Below the pieces are notes generated by a model that worked only from the letters and a program-made list of their open reading frames with translations, did not search any database and was not told the DNA's origin. DNA of 8,465 bases from a virus (taxonomy: Duplodnaviria; Heunggongvirae; Uroviricota; Caudoviricetes): the IMG/VR virus record IMGVR_UViG_2671180454_000010; one strand, given 5' to 3'. Shown piece after piece: positions 1,687 through 8,465 of this stretch; within the stretch, counting starts at the first letter, position 1; each line of letters begins with the position of its first letter. The position numbers and the translations under genes are program-made.

Positions 1687-2397
1687 TCAAACAGCCTTGC
1701 TATACTTCTGAGAAATCTTCGTTAACTGCTCAATATCAGCCATCAAAGCAATCTTCTTCTGCGACTCATATTCACTAACAAGTTCTTTCATAGTATCAAG
1801 TTCTTTTTTAAGCTTTTGCTTTAACTTATCCAGTTTACCGGAATAATGCTTAGTCAAATTAGCTTCAGCTAACTGAAGAATCTCTTCATCTGTTTTATCA
1901 GTCATCAGAATAAATTGACCAGAACCCCTTAATGCTTGTCTGACATCAATTAACCGGAACCCTTCAGGGATACTTTGAAGAACTTTAGGAACGTCTTCAA
2001 TCGCTGTACCAAAACCATCATTAAAGTTTCCTTCATAATAGATAAACGGGTTTGACTTAATCTCGTAAGCAATATCATATTCTGAAGGTTTCGAGGTTTC
2101 TTCGAAGTTCTTAACAGCATCGTAAGCGACATCAAGTCTAAGACGCTGTGATTTTAAAGCTGGGTAATATTCACGCTCAAGCTCAAATAGTGCTTCAGTT
2201 TTGCAGATATCAGGCATTTCTTGAGGCTCAGGAGACACAAAGGAAATTACCTTTGGTGACATCTTTAGCTCTTGCTCAAGCTCAATGCGCTTGTCATGCT
2301 CTTGACGCTGAATAGTATGTAGCGGATGTTCACCCTGTGGTGACCAGTCTCCGAAGCTATCAACCTTTTTACCGTTAATATATAAATCGTTTGTCAT
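1687..2397 (-). CDS. hypothetical acidic protein, 236 aa (paralog of 4041..4652)
   Basis: ATG at 2395-2397 with AGAGGAAA 7 nt upstream. Collinear homology to the 203-aa ORF: shared PEP motif, DG(F/W)G, then 13 residues to (I/L)PEG.R, then DK(S/T)..E(L/I)...A...L; coiled-coil-like Lys/Glu-rich C-terminus. Confidence 0.6.
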   Translation of the reverse strand: MTNDLYINGKKVDSFGDWSPQGEHPLHTIQRQEHDKRIELEQELKMSPKVISFVSPEPQEMPDICKTEALFELEREYYPALKSQRLRLDVAYDAVKNFEETSKPSEYDIAYEIKSNPFIYYEGNFNDGFGTAIEDVPKVLQSIPEGFRLIDVRQALRGSGQFILMTDKTDEEILQLAEANLTKHYSGKLDKLKQKLKKELDTMKELVSEYESQKKIALMADIEQLTKISQKYSKAV

Positions 2398-2528: not shown

Positions 2529-2600
2529 GGAGGTTTGCTTATAACGTTAACGAAGTTTCAGGAAAACTTTCTTTAAAAGCTCTGTTTAAAAACTCTTAAA

Positions 2601-2627
2601 GAAAGCCCTAACTCATGATTAGGGCAA
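2601..2627 (-). terminator. GCCCUAA/UUAGGGC hairpin with U-rich tail (hairpin B, module 1)
   Basis: Stem GCCCTA (2605-2610) / TAGGGC (2620-2625) with a 9-nt loop; on the minus strand followed by UUUCUUUAAG. Immediately 3' of the conserved core. Confidence 0.35.
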
Positions 2628-2633
2628 AGCTGT

Positions 2634-2745
2634 AAAGGATTCAATAATGAATGAACAAAGACTTTTTGAGATAGCCTCTCAGACCAACCTGAAAGGCTAG
2701 GACGAAAAGCATTGCACCTTTCCAACTCAGAATATCCATTCATCG
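2634..2745 (-). repeat. conserved non-coding element, copy 1 (candidate structured RNA or leader)
   Basis: 112 bp aligning to 4792..4905 with 4 substitutions and one 2-nt indel. The two copies do not share a reading frame across the indel, so the conservation is not protein-coding. Lies upstream of the 236-aa ORF. Confidence 0.7.
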
Positions 2746-2755
2746 CGCGGGCTAG

Positions 2756-2788
<33 letters not shown>

Positions 2789-2832
2789 ATGAGGTGTACT
2801 GGCAATAGCGGACACTACCATTTGTTCTTTTT

Positions 2833-3651
2833 TTAAGCAGCCATCTGATGATATTTTTCCCTGAAGGCTGCCGGGGAGATATTCCCCAGACGAGAGTGAC
2901 GACGCTGACGATTGTAGAAAATCTCAATGTATTCCCGTATTACTGAGATGGCTTCATCCCGGTTATTAAAACGATAGTGGCTCAGGCTCTCATTTTTCAG
3001 CGTTCCCCAGAAGCTTTCCATCGGAGCGTTGTCGTAACAGTTACCTTTACGCGACATTGATGTTTTCAGACCAGACTGCTCCTGTATGACCCGGTAATCG
3101 TATGCGCAGTACTGTGAACCTCGATCAGAGTGGTGGATTAGCCCGGCAGGTGGGCGCTGGCTCCTGAGCGCCATAAACAGGGCTTTACCTGTCAGCTCTT
3201 TTGTCATGCGCTCTCCCATGGCGTAGCCGACAATTTCGCACGTATAAACATCTTTGATGCCAGCGAGGTACAACCATCCCTCCTGTGTGGCAACATACGT
3301 CAGGTCCGCCACCCAGACCTGATTTGGTGCTGTAGGAGCGAACGTCTGGTTCAGCAGATTTGGCGCAACTGGCAGATTGTGGTTCGAGTTCGTAGTCGCT
3401 CTGAACTTGCGTTTCTGCTTACAGCGTAGCCTTAGCTCCTTACGAAGACGTGCCAGTCGGTCACGACCAACGATGATGCCATTCTCTGCCAGCTCCGTCT
3501 GGAGCCGCCGGGTTCCATATGTTTCGCGAGTGCGGATATGTGCCACCTTAATCTCCAGTTTTAGCCGCTCATCACTTTGTTTTCTGTCTGAGGGTTCATG
3601 CTGTACCCAGTTGTAATAACCGCTCCTGGATACACCAAATACCTGACACAT
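2833..3651 (-). CDS. IS3-family transposase OrfB (catalytic DDE domain), expressed as OrfAB fusion
   Basis: 272 aa from the first ATG. The same frame is open upstream to the A7 slippery site and is -1 relative to orfA. Integrase-like catalytic region typical of IS3-family OrfB (…HSDRGSQYCAYDY…RKGNCYDNAPMESFWGTLK…). Confidence 0.85.
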   Translation of the reverse strand: MCQVFGVSRSGYYNWVQHEPSDRKQSDERLKLEIKVAHIRTRETYGTRRLQTELAENGIIVGRDRLARLRKELRLRCKQKRKFRATTNSNHNLPVAPNLLNQTFAPTAPNQVWVADLTYVATQEGWLYLAGIKDVYTCEIVGYAMGERMTKELTGKALFMALRSQRPPAGLIHHSDRGSQYCAYDYRVIQEQSGLKTSMSRKGNCYDNAPMESFWGTLKNESLSHYRFNNRDEAISVIREYIEIFYNRQRRHSRLGNISPAAFREKYHQMAA

Positions 3652-3686
3652 CGCTTCAATGGGAAATTGTTGTCGCCATTGTTCGA

Positions 3687-3989
3687 TTAACGCGTATTTT
3701 TCAGCGACTCCTGTGCAAAATACGCTGTTGCTTTTTTTAATATATCTCGCTCAAGGCGAGCTTCATTTAACGCCTTACGCAGTTGCAGAATTTCAGATTC
3801 CAGTTCAGCCACCGTGCGGGAACCAGGAGTACCGAGCCCTTTTCTGGCGGCGGTAACCCATTGTCCTAAAGTGCCTTCAGGAAGAGATAATCGGGAAGCG
3901 CCTTCACTGATCGAAAGTTGATTTTCAGGAACCGTTCTGACAGCTTCGGCTTTGAACTCTTTAGAGTAACGTTGGGTTTTTCTGCTCAT
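3687..3989 (-). CDS. IS3-family transposase OrfA (HTH plus leucine-zipper-like region), 100 aa
   Basis: ATG at 3987-3989 with AGGAGC upstream. C-terminus (…ILQLRKALNEARLERDILKKATAYFAQE…) typical of IS3-family OrfA; ends just after the frameshift hairpin. Confidence 0.85.
   Translation of the reverse strand: MSRKTQRYSKEFKAEAVRTVPENQLSISEGASRLSLPEGTLGQWVTAARKGLGTPGSRTVAELESEILQLRKALNEARLERDILKKATAYFAQESLKNTR
3692..3739 (-). promoter_or_regulatory. programmed -1 ribosomal frameshift site of the IS (A7G slippery run plus downstream hairpin)
   Basis: Minus-strand TTA AAA AAA G (complement of T-run 3732-3738) in the orfA frame; slipping -1 reads …SNSVFCTGVAEKYALIEQWRQQFPIEAMCQVFG… into OrfB. A 9-bp stem GCGUAUUUU/AAAAUACGC (3692-3725) starts about 6 nt downstream. 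Confidence 0.6.
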
Positions 3990-4040: not shown

Positions 4041-4652
4041 TCAGGCTACCTCACTAATCAGCTTAGCCAGTCTTGATTTCAGCAAATTAATCTCATTTTC
4101 TCTTGCTTTCATCAGTTTCTCTTTGGCAATTTCTTCAAGCTCAGCTTGTGATTTATCAGCAACAATTAGAGACAGTCGATGTGGTGCTCTGACAGCTCTT
4201 TCTGTACGAACAACTCTTTGACCTTCTGGTAAATCTGCAATCACTTTACCAATCTCTACAGGGTCATACCCCCAACCGTCACGGTCTAGTCGAGAGAAAT
4301 AAGCATAAGAATTGGTTTGAAGCTCCATCGAAATAACCATTTCGTCAATTTCGTCTTCAAGCTTGGACTGAATTTTCTCGTAAACACTTCTCATTGCTTC
4401 TTGAGAGTCTTTAATAGCTTGGAAATATCGGCGTTGTAGCTTCAACTTCAAATCAAGTTCACACCGTTCGTTCATAGAAAAATCAATTTCAACTCTTGGA
4501 ATCTCGAGTGGTTCTGGTGGAATATATGGACCTTTATTTACTTCGTGTGATTCCCGCCAAGCTCTATCAAAAGATTCACGCAAAGTTAATTCGTGAATAT
4601 CAAGTGCACTTGGTCTGTGTTCGATAAGCATTTCATGTTCATTTCTAATCAT
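4041..4652 (-). CDS. hypothetical acidic protein, 203 aa (paralog of 1687..2397); 3' end formed by the IS terminus
   Basis: ATG at 4650-4652 with AAGGGGTGA 5 nt upstream. Homologous to the 236-aa ORF (see above). The last 4 codons and the stop (4041-4053) lie inside the IS terminal inverted repeat, and the protein is about 30 residues shorter at the C-terminus than its paralog. Confidence 0.6.
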   Translation of the reverse strand: MIRNEHEMLIEHRPSALDIHELTLRESFDRAWRESHEVNKGPYIPPEPLEIPRVEIDFSMNERCELDLKLKLQRRYFQAIKDSQEAMRSVYEKIQSKLEDEIDEMVISMELQTNSYAYFSRLDRDGWGYDPVEIGKVIADLPEGQRVVRTERAVRAPHRLSLIVADKSQAELEEIAKEKLMKARENEINLLKSRLAKLISEVA

Positions 4653-5081: not shown

Positions 5082-5405
5082 TTAGTGAACCCTCACAGAA
5101 TCCGTCACCAGAATATTATCACTGTACAGGATTGTCACAGCACCTTTCAAAAATTGCTCTGGGGAAATACTGTATATGTTCGTTTGCTCGATAACCAATC
5201 TTTTCATGTTGCTGTCTGTAATTGGTAGCATCATTCGAGGCTCGTTAAACTCCACCGACTGAATAAAGTCAGAGATGTTTTCTACATTATCAGCCATCAG
5301 CTTTAGTAATTTATCAAAATTAATTGCGATACCTGCATCAATGAAGCTTTGCACCATCATAGCAGTGTCGTTATCAACCATAATTTGCATTGGGTAATTA
5401 TTCAT
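5082..5405 (-). CDS. hypothetical protein, 107 aa
   Basis: ATG at 5403-5405 with AGGAG 8 nt upstream. The longer ORF to 5528 would start at TTG with no ribosome-binding site and would span leader hairpins, so the internal ATG is preferred. Confidence 0.55.
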   Translation of the reverse strand: MNNYPMQIMVDNDTAMMVQSFIDAGIAINFDKLLKLMADNVENISDFIQSVEFNEPRMMLPITDSNMKRLVIEQTNIYSISPEQFLKGAVTILYSDNILVTDSVRVH

Positions 5406-5572
5406 TTTTAAATCTCCTATGAAACACACCTCAGACCTCTTAAAATAGCCATTCTGAGGCCAGTAACCATGCGGGTTACAGAGGGAGTTGCACTGGCTGG
5501 TAAGGTAATTTATCAAATTAAGGTGCAACTCTGCCTGTAAAGTGCATTCTACCGTTTCTTAGATGGTTATTT

Positions 5573-5992
5573 TTAATTGTCTTTATTAATCAATGGCTTA
5601 ATGTAGAAATACTGTCTCCGTGAAATACCATATTTTTCTGTAATGTATCGCTGAGATTGACCAGCATTTATGGCCTGAGTGATATCATCACGGTTATAGC
5701 GGTTACCACGGGATTTATATTTGTCACCATCCACATCTTCTGAGGTATTGAAGTCTTCAATCAGCTTAATTGCATCGTGAAGGTCATCTTCTGAGGCATA
5801 ATCGAAGGTATGGATAATCTCAAAATCACCAGTATCTGCTGGTGCATTCTTCCATCTGGAGAAGCGGGATTTTAATTGCTGGTGTGTGAAGGGTTCAGCA
5901 TTACGAGTTAAATCTTTCCATGTTCCGTTATTCTCACGGACAAGGTGACCTCTATGGCGATAAAACGCATGATAATCAAATGTGCATAGCAT
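5573..5992 (-). CDS. hypothetical protein with C-terminal HTH-like segment, 139 aa
   Basis: ATG at 5990-5992 overlaps the stop of the upstream RHH ORF (TAATG). C-terminal …DDITQAINAGQSQRYITEKYGISRRQYFYIK… looks like a helix-turn-helix. Confidence 0.55.
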   Translation of the reverse strand: MLCTFDYHAFYRHRGHLVRENNGTWKDLTRNAEPFTHQQLKSRFSRWKNAPADTGDFEIIHTFDYASEDDLHDAIKLIEDFNTSEDVDGDKYKSRGNRYNRDDITQAINAGQSQRYITEKYGISRRQYFYIKPLINKDN

Positions 5993-6282
5993 TAAACCCC
6001 CAGCTTATCCGCCAGTTGATGAACCTTGGCACTCAACACCTGAATCATTGAGCAACCTGCCACTGCGGACTGTGCTTTGAGTAGTTCCAGTTGGCCCGTT
6101 GTGATTCTGATGGCCTTAGAACCCTCTGCAACGCCCTTGATAGCGTCAAACGGTGTAAGGGCTATGTGTTCCTTCAAAATCTCACCAACAAGTGCTGTGT
6201 GGCTCATGGCTGGGTATTTGTCTTTGATTGCTGCCAGTCTGGAATATGCCTCTGGCAAAAGGCGTGTAACTGTGTGTCTCAT
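5992..6282 (-). CDS. ribbon-helix-helix-like DNA-binding protein (apparent tandem RHH), 96 aa
   Basis: ATG at 6280-6282 with AAGGAAAA upstream. Two strand-helix-helix-like halves (TVTRLLPEAYSRLAAIKDKY… and IRITTGQLELLKAQSAVAG…). First gene of a minus-strand operon leaving a divergent promoter region. Confidence 0.5.
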   Translation of the reverse strand: MRHTVTRLLPEAYSRLAAIKDKYPAMSHTALVGEILKEHIALTPFDAIKGVAEGSKAIRITTGQLELLKAQSAVAGCSMIQVLSAKVHQLADKLGV

Positions 6283-6340
6283 TAAATTTTCCTTCTTAAA
6301 ATCTTTGACTTATAACTAACTTTAACATATTTATAACATA

Positions 6341-6369
6341 TTGTCAACAACTCATTTACATGTTAATAT
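6341..6369 (+). promoter_or_regulatory. candidate sigma70 promoter for the 61-aa ORF, in a back-to-back promoter region
   Basis: TTGTCA (6341-6346), 17-nt spacer, TAATAT (6364-6369). The complementary strand reads TTGACA at 6347-6342, a perfect -35 for the divergent RHH operon. Direct repeats TAACATATT at 6323-6331 and 6334-6342. Confidence 0.45.
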
Positions 6370-6420: not shown

Positions 6421-6606
6421 ATGGGCTTTCTTGAAACAATTGCTGAATCTCACAGATTCGCAAGCTTAGGTTGCTTTGTGTTTCTGGTGCTTCTTGTGTA
6501 TCAGCTTTTAAAAATGATTATCGCCAGAAGTACACGATTCAATTTCAGCATTAAGCTTTTCAAATATGAAATCACAATTACGATTGATGATGGTAAAACA
6601 AACTAA
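6421..6606 (+). CDS. small single-pass membrane protein, 61 aa
   Basis: ATG at 6421 with AAGGGG 5 nt upstream; hydrophobic segment LGCFVFLVLLVYQLLKMII. Stop overlaps the stop of the convergent minus-strand ORF 6603..6893. Confidence 0.45.
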   Translation: MGFLETIAESHRFASLGCFVFLVLLVYQLLKMIIARSTRFNFSIKLFKYEITITIDDGKTN

Positions 6607-6893
6607 CGTTTTGTGATAATATTGGTGGCCTTTAAGTTGCTGGGGTCACCGTCTTTTAATCGTAGCTGGTGGATTGAATTCCAGATATCAAAATGATACA
6701 GCACTGCAAACCTCAAAGCGTCAATCTTTAAATCTGTCACACCATCGTAAAAGAAATAACCCCTCCCTTCTTTCTTTGGTCTAATCCGGTAAACTTCCCC
6801 GTGAGTATCCTTCATAAGATGACCTTCACGAGAAATGCTGTAACGCTTTAACAGGTAATCTTTGTATCTCTTTTCACCGTGATATTCTTTCAT
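6603..6893 (-). CDS. small protein with degenerate HNH/AP2-like fold (candidate DNA-binding module), 96 aa
   Basis: ATG at 6891-6893 with GGAGGAA upstream; start overlaps the upstream stop (TAATG). Pattern …EGRGYFFYDG…ALRFAVLYHF…RLKDGDPSNLKATN resembles HNH_3/AP2-type domains, but the expected catalytic His-x-Asp-Gly-Asn region reads LKDGD. Confidence 0.4.
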   Translation of the reverse strand: MKEYHGEKRYKDYLLKRYSISREGHLMKDTHGEVYRIRPKKEGRGYFFYDGVTDLKIDALRFAVLYHFDIWNSIHQLRLKDGDPSNLKATNIITKR

Positions 6894-7267
6894 TACTTAA
6901 TTCCTCCACCGGCAAAATACATCTTCGGTTTAATTTTTTGCTTCTTGTCATCCTGAGTTTGTTTCTTTTTCGGTGAAAGATAATAATCATCTTCACTGTC
7001 ATCGAATGGGTCTAAACCCGATACTTTGTTCTTTTGTCTTGCAAGCTCGAATCTCTTTTTCTTCTCTGCCCTCTTAATGGCTTTTTCACGTTCATCCTCT
7101 TCATCATCGAAGGGGTCCAACTCATCATCAGTGGCGGGGCACTGTGTGTTTTTATGGTCACTATCAACACTCACATCAGTGATTTCTCTGTCTTGTTTAG
7201 AAGTCTTTTTAGAGCTTACTTCAAGGTCAGATTCATTCATAGAGAGAAAATCATTTAATTCATCCAA
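6893..7267 (-). CDS. acidic protein with duplicated LDPFDD(E/S)EDD motif, start uncertain
   Basis: Frame is open from about 7375 to 6893 with no ATG before 7238-7240; the ORF track starts at TTG 7265-7267; neither has a clear Shine-Dalgarno. Two near-identical acidic motifs (DELDPFDDEEDE, SGLDPFDDSEDD) and a Lys-rich stretch. Confidence 0.45.
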   Translation of the reverse strand: MDELNDFLSMNESDLEVSSKKTSKQDREITDVSVDSDHKNTQCPATDDELDPFDDEEDEREKAIKRAEKKKRFELARQKNKVSGLDPFDDSEDDYYLSPKKKQTQDDKKQKIKPKMYFAGGGIK

Positions 7268-7379: not shown

Positions 7380-7437
7380 TGACATTTTGTCACTACCCCC
7401 ATGACATTTTGTCACTGGTAGTGGTGTCATTTTGTCT
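7380..7437 (-). promoter_or_regulatory. cluster of three TGACA-N3-TGTCA inverted-repeat sites (operator or iteron-like)
   Basis: TGACAtttTGTCA at 7380-7392 and 7402-7414, degenerate TGTCAtttTGTCT at 7425-7437; centre spacing 22-23 bp. Flanking inverted repeat CACTACC (7391-7397) / GGTAGTG (7417-7423). Overlaps the stop codon of the adjacent HTH gene. Confidence 0.55.
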
Positions 7438-7782
7438 TACTGAGGCTGCAACTTCCTGTGATGTAGGTCTTACAAGTAATTCCGGCTTATCATCCAGTGT
7501 GAATACACGATAAGTGCTTTGACGCCCCTGATTCTTTTGCACCTGAATTAAACCGTGTTTCTCAAGTGTCTCAATGGCTCTGATTGCTGTTCTCTTTGAT
7601 ACACCAGCCATATAAGCGAGATGGTCAATACTTGGTGAATATGATTTGTATTTCTCTTCATAGAAGTCACAGCTATGGACCATGACCATATAAATCAATC
7701 TTGCTGCTGCGTTAATTTCTTCTGAAAGTTGAGAGATTCGCACATCAAATTTATAAAACTGATTTGGGTTATATTTAGACAT
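7393..7782 (-). CDS. winged-helix/HTH DNA-binding protein, 129 aa
   Basis: ATG at 7780-7782 with GAGGTAA upstream. …LAYMAGVSKRTAIRAIETLEKHGLIQVQKNQGRQSTYRV… reads as helix-turn-helix plus wing. Family not identifiable by eye; could be a repressor or a replication-initiator N-domain. Confidence 0.6.
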   Translation of the reverse strand: MSKYNPNQFYKFDVRISQLSEEINAAARLIYMVMVHSCDFYEEKYKSYSPSIDHLAYMAGVSKRTAIRAIETLEKHGLIQVQKNQGRQSTYRVFTLDDKPELLVRPTSQEVAASVRQNDTTTSDKMSWG

Positions 7783-8145: not shown

Positions 8146-8465
8146 TTAGCTCAACCTTTGAGCAATCCTGTATGACGTGCTCAGAGGCATTCTGAGAGCA
8201 TCTGCAATGCACTTAATGGGTTTTCCTTGCCTGTATAGTTTTATGAAGCTGTCGAGCGTCTCAGGTGGGTAAATGGTGGGTCTTCCTCTTAGTCCACCAC
8301 GGTTAATGATGGTTAACGGTAGCAATGTATCAGCACAGCAAACCATCTGTGTAATTTCATGCTTACGTGGTTCTTTTTTAAAAACAACGACTGCACTTGG
8401 AAACGGTGACCTAATAGTAAGCCTGTTATGCCCTGCTGGTGGAAGGTATTTAACTGCACGATGAA
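8146..8465 (-). CDS. 5'-partial ORF with resolvase-type (HTH_7-like) C-terminal DNA-binding segment
   Basis: Frame is open from the window edge to the stop at 8146-8148; the internal ATG at 8344-8346 has no Shine-Dalgarno. C-terminus …GRPTIYPPETLDSFIKLYRQGKPIKCIADALRMPLSTSYRIAQRL follows the GRP…IA…ST.YR pattern of serine-recombinase HTH domains; the upstream part does not look like a recombinase E-helix. Confidence 0.4.
   Translation of the reverse strand, partial: HRAVKYLPPAGHNRLTIRSPFPSAVVVFKKEPRKHEITQMVCCADTLLPLTIINRGGLRGRPTIYPPETLDSFIKLYRQGKPIKCIADALRMPLSTSYRIAQRLS

What the first reader, a model, noticed from the sequence alone, without database searches (positions are those of the whole stretch)
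5573..6282. Translationally coupled pair: tandem-RHH protein followed by a 139-aa protein with an HTH tail
The RHH ORF stop and the next ORF's start overlap as TAATG, the typical arrangement of antitoxin-toxin or regulator-effector pairs. The operon leaves a back-to-back promoter region that contains direct repeats TAACATATT (6323-6331, 6334-6342), a plausible RHH operator. The second protein does not resemble any toxin family I recognise, so a toxin-antitoxin assignment is unproven; a relaxosome-accessory role (TraY-like tandem RHH) is an alternative.
Basis: partly seen in the sequence, partly recalled or inferred. Interest (0 to 1): 0.4.

Follow-up and report, generated by a model that had tools for sequence, protein, structure and literature searches.

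The report
Island regulator pair: tandem-RHH plus HTH protein
Two small overlapping genes at the head of the main operon of an ~11 kb chromosomal island in Shigella/E. coli both look like DNA-binding regulators, a double ribbon-helix-helix protein and a protein with a resolvase-type helix-turn-helix tail, and not like a toxin-antitoxin pair or a conjugation accessory.

Summary
The minus-strand ORFs 6282..5992 (96 aa) and 5992..5573 (139 aa) overlap as TAATG. TAACATATT occurs twice, 11 bp apart, inside a predicted promoter. Both genes are real: RefSeq annotates homologues and dN/dS is about 0.15-0.2.

The 96-aa protein is predicted as beta-alpha-alpha twice, and its best fold matches are F-plasmid TraY, DndE and single-chain Arc. 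It shows no sequence homology to TraY. The 139-aa protein has an orphan ~85-aa N-domain, a linker and a resolvase/Hin-type arm plus HTH.

The pair is confined to an uncharacterised Enterobacteriaceae island family carrying a large serine recombinase, tape-measure and Dit-like genes. A paired ATGTTA hexamer at 11-bp phase sits beside the -35 box even in islands whose RHH is only ~30% identical, and the predicted DNA-reading strand residues are invariant.

RHH and partner alleles assort independently (RHH 96% vs partner 28%; partner 98% vs RHH 39%). No toxin family matches. There is no relaxase and no plasmid copy.

Most likely this is an autorepressing tandem-RHH operator protein with a co-translated second DNA-binding regulator. 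It is ordinary in kind, and both sequence families are new. Toxin-antitoxin and relaxosome readings are not supported.

The parts
5992..6282 (-). Gene for a 96-aa single-chain tandem ribbon-helix-helix protein, predicted operator-binding autorepressor. Repeat 1 is residues 3-35, the conserved linker is 36-56 and repeat 2 is 57-94.
   Evidence: ORF. RefSeq homologues are annotated as hypothetical proteins. dN/dS is about 0.19. AF2 secondary structure is E3-7 H10-22 H28-35 / E57-61 H62-75 H79-94, mean pLDDT 59. Best Foldseek matches are TraY chains 9f0x_E/G (prob 0.94-0.97), DndE, single-chain Arc and ParG. No Pfam, PHROG, NCBIfam or PADLOC hit.
5738..5992 (-). N-terminal domain (residues 1-85) of the 139-aa partner protein: an orphan beta-beta-beta-alpha-beta-alpha module of unknown activity.
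   Evidence: AF2 gives E7-13 E16-21 E24-27 H37-42 E58-64 H68-83, block pLDDT 60-83. The fold matches listed are accounted for by the C-terminal HTH and none is attributable to this domain. Only 13 relatives at E<1e-3 among 1.84 billion representative proteins. A stand-alone 73-76-aa version occupies the same position in other islands.
5573..5737 (-). Linker (residues 86-100, including the G-N-R-Y arm) and C-terminal three-helix HTH (residues 101-135) of the 139-aa protein, plus the stop codon.
5990..5994 (-). TAATG stop/start overlap (translational coupling).
   Evidence: Sequence. The same 1-nt overlap is kept in L001 (18834), L003 (9006), L009 (8001) and L013 (9013).
6319..6347 (-). Predicted promoter of the leftward operon: -35 TTGACA 6347-6342, 17-nt spacer, extended -10 TGTTAAAGT with -10 hexamer at 6324-6319.
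   Evidence: Scan, 10/12 matches with TG. Almost invariant in 9 islands.
6323..6342 (.). Two direct repeats TAACATATT (6323-6331 and 6334-6342), core hexamer TAACAT (ATGTTA in operon sense), 11-bp period. Candidate operator covering the spacer and the edge of the -10 of the leftward promoter.
   Evidence: The core pair with 11-bp phase is conserved in type-A islands and recurs next to the -35 box in two of three type-B islands whose RHH is 27-35% identical (L009, L015); in the third (L013) the second copy reads TTGTTA. Both copies are mutated in L002, where the RHH gene is frameshifted.
6341..6369 (+). Predicted divergent promoter for the 61-aa membrane-peptide gene. Its -35 overlaps the -35 of the leftward promoter. 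A third, inverted TAACAT (6360-6365) abuts its -10 box.
   Evidence: Scan, 9/12 matches with TG. The third hexamer is not conserved among islands.
6421..6606 (+). Divergently transcribed gene for a 61-aa single-pass membrane peptide. Likely under the same control region, function unknown.
   Evidence: ORF. Annotated homologue WP_000506009.1. 58-72-aa counterparts sit in the same position in type-B islands.

Best explanation
The pair forms the two leading genes of the long leftward operon of an integrated ~11 kb mobile island: large serine recombinase, Dit-like, tape measure, small unknown genes, then this pair. Both products are DNA-binding regulators.

The 96-aa protein is a single-chain pseudo-dimer of two RHH motifs. 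One molecule is inferred to read one ATGTTA hexamer with its two-stranded sheet (T4, T6, R7 on strand 1; R59 on strand 2). Two molecules would sit on the same DNA face (11-bp phase) across the spacer and -10 edge of its own promoter. That would shut off the operon (negative autoregulation) and probably affect the overlapping divergent promoter of the membrane-peptide gene.

The 139-aa protein is made in step with it through the TAATG overlap. It binds DNA through a resolvase/Hin-type arm plus HTH. Its orphan N-domain is inferred to act as a dimerisation or partner-binding module, which makes the protein a second regulator (co-repressor or activator of downstream island genes).

Shown: gene structure, coupling, purifying selection, predicted folds, conservation and enrichment of the repeats, and independent assortment of the two genes. 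Inferred: which protein binds the repeats, the direction of regulation, and the role of the N-domain.
For: Tandem beta-alpha-alpha prediction, with best fold matches to TraY, DndE and single-chain Arc.

The repeats lie inside the best-scoring promoter of the region and are enriched.

The ATGTTA pair at 11-bp phase is kept beside TTGACA in type-A islands and in two of three type-B islands (imperfect in L013). The RHH strand residues T4, T6, R7, R59 and I60 are invariant although overall identity falls to 27-34%.

Apart from the recombinases, the RHH is the only predicted DNA binder present in every island variant examined (frameshifted in L002). The repeats persist where the partner lacks its HTH tail (L003, L007) and are degraded where the RHH gene is frameshifted (L002).

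The partner tail is a resolvase-class HTH.

Both genes are under purifying selection.

The pair and its 1-nt overlap are conserved in divergent islands.
Against: No binding or expression data exist.

The AF2 models are of moderate to low confidence, and the Foldseek E-values are weak (0.04).

Two of the three hexamers in the window coincide with extended -10 elements (TGT-TAAAGT, TGT-TAATAT), so part of the 'repeat' may simply be promoter sequence.

In type-B islands the repeats lie upstream of -35, a position better suited to activation or to control of the divergent promoter than to autorepression.

The whole 70-bp core is conserved, not only the repeats.

The N-domain has no detectable relative of known function, so an enzymatic or toxic activity cannot be excluded.

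The two halves of the RHH protein are not significantly similar in sequence.
Confidence: 0.55

Rival explanations
1. Arc-Ant-like arrangement. The RHH is the autorepressor of the operon. The partner is not a transcription factor but an effector whose N-domain binds another protein, for example a helper-phage or host repressor, the island's recombinase, or the RHH itself. The HTH tail would be an optional tether.
For: The N-domain alone (73-76 aa, no HTH) occupies the same coupled position in other islands, so its function is separable from DNA binding. The RHH-first, effector-second layout resembles P22 arc-ant (established knowledge of P22 immI, not tested here). Truncated and in-frame-deleted partner variants are common.
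Against: There is no similarity to any antirepressor family (PHROGs and Pfam negative). The HTH tail is the better conserved part across the most distant full-length members. No interaction data exist.
Confidence: 0.15
2. Recombination accessory. The partner (resolvase-like arm plus HTH without a catalytic domain) and/or the RHH bind at the island's recombination or resolution sites and set the direction or timing of excision or inversion by the island's serine recombinases.
Against: Known directionality factors of large serine integrases act by binding the integrase, not DNA (established knowledge of Bxb1 gp47 and phiC31 gp3). The only repeated sites found are in the promoter region, not at the island ends. 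The HTH similarity is generic for the class.
Confidence: 0.1
3. Type II toxin-antitoxin module: RHH antitoxin and autorepressor, with the 139-aa protein as a new toxin.
For: Small overlapping genes with the DNA-binding protein first, located on a mobile island. The orphan N-domain has a few conserved polar residues (R19, D27, D53, D64, D70).
Against: No toxin family or fold match; the HicA lead was rejected.

The RHH protein has no C-terminal neutralising extension, and the candidate 'toxin' carries an HTH.

Alleles assort independently: RHH 96% identical with partners 28% or 57% identical, and partners 98% identical with RHHs 39% identical. A recombination breakpoint lies at the gene junction (dS 0.50 vs 0.024).

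An HNH gene is inserted between the two genes in L015.

The RHH is frameshifted while the downstream ORF is intact in L002.
Confidence: 0.07
4. TraY-like relaxosome accessory protein that prepares an oriT for nicking.
For: The best structural matches of the 96-aa model are the TraY chains of the F relaxosome.
Against: hhalign to F TraY gives 1.3% probability, and there is no Pfam TraY hit. No relaxase, coupling protein or T4SS gene is in the island. All E. coli copies are chromosomal. No tblastn hit in the plasmid collection.
Confidence: 0.02

Closest known systems
TraY of F-like plasmids (single-chain tandem RHH; PDB 9f0x chains E-G)
   Same: One polypeptide carries two beta-alpha-alpha repeats joined by a linker, of similar size. 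It is the best fold match (Foldseek prob 0.94-0.97). TraY also binds phased sub-sites and regulates a promoter (established knowledge).
   Different: No sequence homology. No oriT, relaxase or conjugation context. The gene sits on a chromosomal island, first in an operon that ends in phage tail genes.
Arc / Mnt of phage P22 (immI) and single-chain Arc (PDB 1u9p)
   Same: An RHH repressor encoded as the first gene of the operon it represses, with divergent overlapping promoters and an operator overlapping the -35/-10 region. The engineered single-chain Arc is among the fold matches.
   Different: Arc is a 53-aa monomer that forms dimers and tetramers on a palindromic operator. Here the dimer is fused in one chain and the sites are direct repeats. 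The downstream protein is unrelated to Ant.
Omega (pSM19035) and CopG/ParG-type RHH repressors that bind direct or phased short repeats
   Same: Short (6-7 bp) repeats in direct orientation read by successive RHH units on promoter DNA. ParG is a weak fold match.
   Different: Those are homodimers with one RHH per chain. No sequence similarity. The omega-epsilon-zeta system includes a true toxin, and none is detected here.
DNA-binding domain of small serine recombinases (gamma-delta/Tn3 resolvase, Hin, Sin; Pfam HTH_7)
   Same: The partner's residues ~91-135 align with the resolvase arm plus three-helix HTH, including a Gly-x-Arg arm motif before helix 1.
   Different: There is no catalytic domain. 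The N-terminal 85 residues are an unrelated orphan fold. Pfam scores are below threshold.
Type II toxin-antitoxin modules with RHH antitoxins (ParD/ParE, CcdA/CcdB, RelB/RelE)
   Same: Two small overlapping genes, with an RHH DNA binder first and an autoregulatory promoter.
   Different: There is no toxin-neutralising tail, no toxin fold and no co-inheritance of cognate alleles.

Membership tests
Type II toxin-antitoxin module | Two small adjacent, co-transcribed and often overlapping genes | tested here: met
   TAATG overlap at 5990-5994, conserved in L001, L003, L009 and L013.
Type II toxin-antitoxin module | The antitoxin has a DNA-binding domain plus a separate toxin-neutralising segment | tested here: not met
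Caveat: the 20-residue linker is conserved and modelled with low confidence.
Type II toxin-antitoxin module | The second protein belongs to a known toxin family or fold | tested here: not met
Type II toxin-antitoxin module | Cognate toxin and antitoxin alleles are inherited and evolve together | tested here: not met
   L001-L003: RHH 96% vs partner 28%. L006-L015: partner 98% vs RHH 39%. Window-L001: dS 0.50 (RHH) vs 0.024 (partner).
Type II toxin-antitoxin module | Growth arrest by the toxin, relieved by the antitoxin | not testable with these tools
   Needs inducible expression in vivo.
TraY relaxosome accessory proteins | Two RHH repeats in one chain | tested here: met
   AF2 secondary structure is beta-alpha-alpha twice. 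Best Foldseek matches are TraY chains. Model pLDDT is only 59.
TraY relaxosome accessory proteins | Sequence homology to the TraY family | tested here: not met
   No Pfam hit at E<=1. hhalign of profile A2 against F TraY gives prob 1.3%.
TraY relaxosome accessory proteins | Encoded next to an oriT and relaxase on a conjugative or mobilisable element | tested here: not met
   Island gene content has no relaxase or T4SS. 232 of 232 E. coli places are chromosomal. No plasmid hit.
RHH (MetJ/Arc/CopG) transcriptional repressors | Beta-alpha-alpha motif whose strand carries the base-reading polar or basic residues | tested here: met
   Predicted strands HTVTR (3-7) and AIRIT (57-61). T4, T6, R7, R59 and I60 are invariant from type A to type B. 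This is prediction only, and no Pfam RHH model is matched.
RHH (MetJ/Arc/CopG) transcriptional repressors | Binds repeated operator sites overlapping its own promoter | tested here: inconclusive
   Phased repeats lie inside the predicted promoter, are enriched and are conserved. Binding itself cannot be tested here.
Resolvase/Hin-type HTH (Pfam HTH_7 class) | Three-helix HTH preceded by a Gly-Arg minor-groove arm | tested here: met
Serine recombinases | N-terminal catalytic domain with the nucleophilic serine | tested here: not met
   No Resolvase domain hit. The N-domain topology is beta-beta-beta-alpha-beta-alpha, and no listed fold match is attributable to it.

The most novel reading that the evidence does not exclude
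The pair is the master switch of a so far undescribed family of ~11 kb elements in Enterobacteriaceae. These elements integrate with a serine recombinase and carry tail genes (tape measure plus Dit-like) but no capsid or packaging genes. They could be a phage satellite or a tail-assembly-interfering defence island.

In this reading the fused-dimer RHH holds the tail-gene operon silent. The orphan N-domain of the partner senses a helper-phage or host protein to release it. The N-domain would then be a new sensor or anti-repressor fold.
Probability: 0.15. Interest if true: 0.65.

Novelty: new member of a known kind. Interest (0 to 1): 0.3.

Why it matters
The pair itself is a modest result. It adds two sequence families with no database annotation (a fused-dimer RHH outside conjugation systems, and an orphan domain fused to a resolvase-type HTH) to the known class of autoregulated repressor-led operons. 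It also removes a tempting but unsupported toxin-antitoxin label.

Its wider value is as an entry point to the island it controls. That island is a compact, mosaic element under purifying selection. It is found in Escherichia, Shigella, Citrobacter and Salmonella, inserts at several chromosomal sites, and carries only tail-initiation genes of a siphovirus. If the island is a satellite or an anti-phage element, this promoter-operator-regulator set is where its induction would be decided.

Tried and rejected
1. Family libraries (Pfam, PHROGs, NCBIfam, PADLOC) for both proteins gave nothing above noise, only HTH_28 at E 0.12 on the tail.

2. PDB sequence and profile searches gave only chance hits for the RHH and weak resolvase-DBD hits for the tail.

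3. Megablast of the locus and tblastn of both proteins against the phage and plasmid collections found no match.

4. HicA-like toxin lead for the N-domain (recalled motif resemblance G-H-L-V-R ... P-x-x-H): hhalign prob 9% over 11 columns, rejected.

5. Homology to F TraY: rejected.

6. Internal sequence duplication of the RHH protein: BLASTP finds nothing. hhalign of the two halves aligns them in the right register but is not significant (E 0.018, prob 2.6%).

8. Third, inverted TAACAT at 6360-6365 as part of the operator: not conserved among islands.

9. Rfam scan of the window found no family. The 167-nt gap after the 139-aa gene folds only slightly better than shuffles (z -2.3) and has no terminator.

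10. Three literature searches for the island found nothing relevant, and one search on tandem RHH was badly framed and useless.

11. The genome-contig scan with the partner profile returned only two loci, confirming a narrow distribution without adding diversity.

Full report
**1. The observation**

The window carries two minus-strand ORFs, 6282..5992 (96 aa) and 5992..5573 (139 aa). The + strand reads CATTA at 5990-5994, which is TAATG on the coding strand, so stop and start share one base. Each start has a plausible Shine-Dalgarno: AAGGA 7 nt upstream of the first ATG, and GGGGG 4 nt upstream of the second.

TAACATATT is present at 6323-6331 and 6334-6342, with an 11-bp period. An adjacent 9-mer repeat arises in 1.7% of composition-matched simulations of the 138-nt intergenic region. 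The core hexamer TAACAT/ATGTTA occurs four times in the whole window, three of them within 43 bp here (simulation p = 0.002).

The consensus scan finds two overlapping divergent promoters. On the - strand: TTGACA 6347-6342, 17 nt, TAAAGT 6324-6319, with TG extension, 10 of 12 matches. On the + strand: TTGTCA 6341-6346, 17 nt, TAATAT 6364-6369. The two repeats fill the spacer of the leftward promoter and touch its -10 box. The scan as a whole is not enriched over shuffles, so the promoter call rests on position and conservation.

**2. Are these real genes?**

RefSeq annotates homologues of both as hypothetical proteins in many E. coli chromosomes. Across islands the median dN/dS is 0.19 for the first gene and 0.15 for the second. 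No Rfam family is present in the window.

**3. What the proteins look like**

Neither protein matches any model in Pfam, PHROGs, NCBIfam or PADLOC. The one exception is a sub-threshold HTH_28 hit on residues 106-127 of the 139-aa protein. PDB sequence searches are negative.

*The 96-aa protein.*
- AlphaFold2 with 35 homologues gives E3-7 H10-22 H28-35, a low-confidence linker, then E57-61 H62-75 H79-94, i.e. beta-alpha-alpha twice (mean pLDDT 59).
- Its best Foldseek matches in the PDB are chains E, F and G of the F-plasmid relaxosome (prob 0.94-0.97, E 0.04). I confirmed these are TraY, the classic single-chain double RHH.
- The next matches are DndE, permuted single-chain Arc and ParG.
- There is no sequence homology to TraY (hhalign prob 1.3%).
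- The two halves are not significantly similar to each other.
- 'Tandem RHH' is therefore a fold-level call of moderate confidence.

*The 139-aa protein.*
- The model (pLDDT 70) has an N-domain E7-13 E16-21 E24-27 H37-42 E58-64 H68-83, a disordered linker 84-100, and three helices at 101-109, 114-121 and 125-135.
- A profile of the family aligns positions 91-126 with gamma-delta resolvase 143-178.
- hhalign aligns the tail with the HTH of the island's own small serine recombinase (E 4.9e-5).
- The conserved G-N-R-Y just before helix 1 corresponds to the resolvase/Hin minor-groove arm.
- The N-domain has no structural or sequence relative of known function. An exhaustive profile search of 1.84 billion representative proteins found 13 hits at E<1e-3.

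**4. Context**

The window is part of an ~11-12 kb chromosomal island.
- In E. coli EC20017429 it lies between tonB and yciI. Its gene order is: large serine recombinase, 'baseplate' (Dit-like) protein, tape-measure protein, several small unknown genes, the pair, a divergent 61-aa membrane peptide, a 96-aa gene, a 322-aa replication-initiator-like HTH_36 protein, a Dam methylase and a small serine recombinase (Pfam on relatives).
- Related islands are inserted in mdtG and in yecE.
- No capsid, portal, terminase, relaxase or secretion gene is present.
- All 232 E. coli places are chromosomal. Neither the phage nor the plasmid collection holds either protein.
- The RHH family comprises 162 clusters, all from Escherichia, Shigella, Citrobacter or Salmonella and all unnamed. 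The closest (99%) is from Shigella sonnei.

**5. Comparative evidence on the pair**

A second island type ('type B': L009, L013, L015) has a 185-aa gene, then a 92-aa gene, then a 128-130-aa homologue of the partner (43-59% identity). The 92-aa protein is a full-length homologue of the 96-aa RHH (hhalign E 2.8e-5 over 88 columns, 27% identity). The 1-nt overlap is retained. The pair is thus an old, conserved unit.

The two genes are nevertheless shuffled independently.
- Islands L001 and L003 have RHH proteins 96% identical, but their partners are 28% identical (a 141-aa HTH form versus a 76-aa N-domain-only form).
- L006 and L015 have partners 98% identical, but RHH proteins 39% identical.
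- Between the window and L001, dS is 0.50 in the RHH gene and 0.024 in the partner gene. A recombination breakpoint therefore lies at the junction.
- In L015 an HNH_3 homing-endonuclease-like gene sits between the two genes.
- In L002 the RHH gene is frameshifted while the downstream 73-aa ORF is intact.

**6. Comparative evidence on the operator**

Among nine type-A islands the 70-bp promoter core is almost invariant, and the hexamer pair keeps its 11-bp phase (consensus TTAACAT-N4-TTAACAT). In L002, the island with the broken RHH gene, both copies carry substitutions (TAACAC, TAGCAT).

In type-B islands, whose intergenic sequence is otherwise unrelated, ATGTTA-N5-ATGTTA appears again next to a TTGACA -35 box, but 8 nt upstream of it instead of inside the spacer. 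This holds in L009 and L015; in L013 the second copy is imperfect (TTGTTA). In L009, 3 of the 7 hexamers in 16.4 kb lie in that 147-nt region.

The residues expected to read DNA from the two RHH strands (T4, T6, R7; R59, I60) are invariant between types A and B, although overall identity is 27-34%.

The repeats persist in islands whose partner lacks an HTH (L003, L007). Apart from the recombinases, the RHH is the only predicted DNA binder common to all island variants examined (frameshifted in L002). This points to the RHH protein as the binder.

Caveats:
- Two of the window's three hexamers coincide with extended -10 elements.
- The third, inverted copy (6360-6365) is not conserved.
- The type-B position fits activation, or control of the divergent promoter, better than autorepression.

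**7. Most likely mechanism**

The leftward promoter drives an operon that starts with the RHH gene. The fused-dimer RHH binds one ATGTTA per molecule, and two molecules sit on one face of the helix. This occludes the promoter (autorepression) and probably influences the back-to-back promoter of the membrane peptide. The partner, made in step through translational coupling, is a second DNA-binding regulator whose orphan N-domain dimerises or binds another protein. I put this at 0.55.

Rivals:
- Arc-Ant-like effector, where the N-domain acts on a protein: 0.15.
- Accessory factor for the island's serine recombinases: 0.10.
- Toxin-antitoxin: 0.07.
- Relaxosome accessory: 0.02.

The remainder is left unassigned.

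**8. Comparison with known systems**

The system works most like Arc/Mnt-type or omega/CopG-type RHH autorepressors. It is built like TraY, with two RHH repeats in one chain. It is not a member of the TraY family, since sequence and context tests fail. It does not meet the TA criteria that could be tested: no neutralising tail, no toxin fold, no co-inheritance. The partner's tail belongs to the resolvase/Hin HTH class but lacks a recombinase domain.

**9. Verdict**

Its two functional suggestions, which it had itself hedged, are not supported. The pair is a new sequence-level member of a familiar kind of regulatory module, and its interest is modest (0.3).

The island around it is more unusual. 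It carries tail-initiation genes only, a large serine recombinase and mosaic modules, and I found nothing on it in the literature searches. That is where a follow-up would pay off.

Noticed in passing
whole window; L001 11700-22624; L009 4942-15168; L003 1846-13786: The window belongs to a conserved ~11-12 kb island family in Escherichia, Shigella, Citrobacter and Salmonella. It carries a large serine recombinase, a Dit-like protein and a ~690-aa tape-measure protein but no capsid, portal or terminase genes. It is inserted at three or more chromosomal sites (tonB-yciI, mdtG, yecE). It may be an undescribed phage satellite or tail-interference element, and three literature searches found nothing on it.
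   Followed up: partly
window 6421-6606 (+): A 61-aa single-pass membrane peptide gene is transcribed divergently from the RHH gene. Its 3' end overlaps the convergent gene 6603-6893 by 4 nt. Counterparts of 58-72 aa sit in the same position in type-B islands (L009 6841-7017, L015 10941-11159). Function unknown.
   Followed up: partly
window 6893-7267 and 7393-7782 (-): These two ORFs correspond to the C-terminal part (residues 194-322, 75% identity) and the N-terminal part (residues 6-109, 40% identity) of the single 322-aa replication-initiator-like HTH_36 protein of L001. In this window the gene appears split, probably a pseudogene, and its N-terminal part is a different allele.
   Followed up: yes
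window 2573-3989: An IS3-family insertion sequence (orfA 3687-3989, 100 aa; orfB 2833-3651, 272 aa) interrupts the island. It matches thousands of places in E. coli genomes. Its exact IS name was not determined.
   Followed up: no
window 4041-4652 and 1687-2397 (-): The 203-aa and 236-aa proteins flanking the IS look like paralogues (similar C-terminal halves by eye). Related islands have only one copy, which PGAP sometimes names 'transposase'.
   Followed up: no
L015 9529-9801: A 90-aa HNH_3 endonuclease gene is inserted exactly between the RHH gene and the partner gene in one type-B island. This fits the mosaic junction seen between the two genes.
   Followed up: partly
L009 5518-6840; L015 10636-13605: Long stretches (1.3-3 kb) without annotated genes lie between the small recombinase or island end and the membrane-peptide gene in type-B islands. 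At least in L009 the stretch is repeat-rich (e.g. TATAGGGTGAATTTATGTCACTGATTTTAAAG twice in L009). They take the place of the Rep-like and Dam genes of type A and may be an origin or packaging region.
   Followed up: no
window 5400-5572: A 167-nt untranslated gap follows the 139-aa gene. It contains inverted repeats (GAGTTGCAC...GTGCAACTC) and folds only slightly better than shuffles (z -2.3). Window 5400-5488 alone is shared with most of the other E. coli genomes that match the region but lack this pair (15 of the 30 sampled rows), which marks a module boundary.
   Followed up: partly
window 8146-8465 (-): The C-terminal end of the island's Dam-type N6-adenine methyltransferase carries an HTH_7-like segment (Pfam E 3.3e-5). 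The gene runs off the window end.
   Followed up: no
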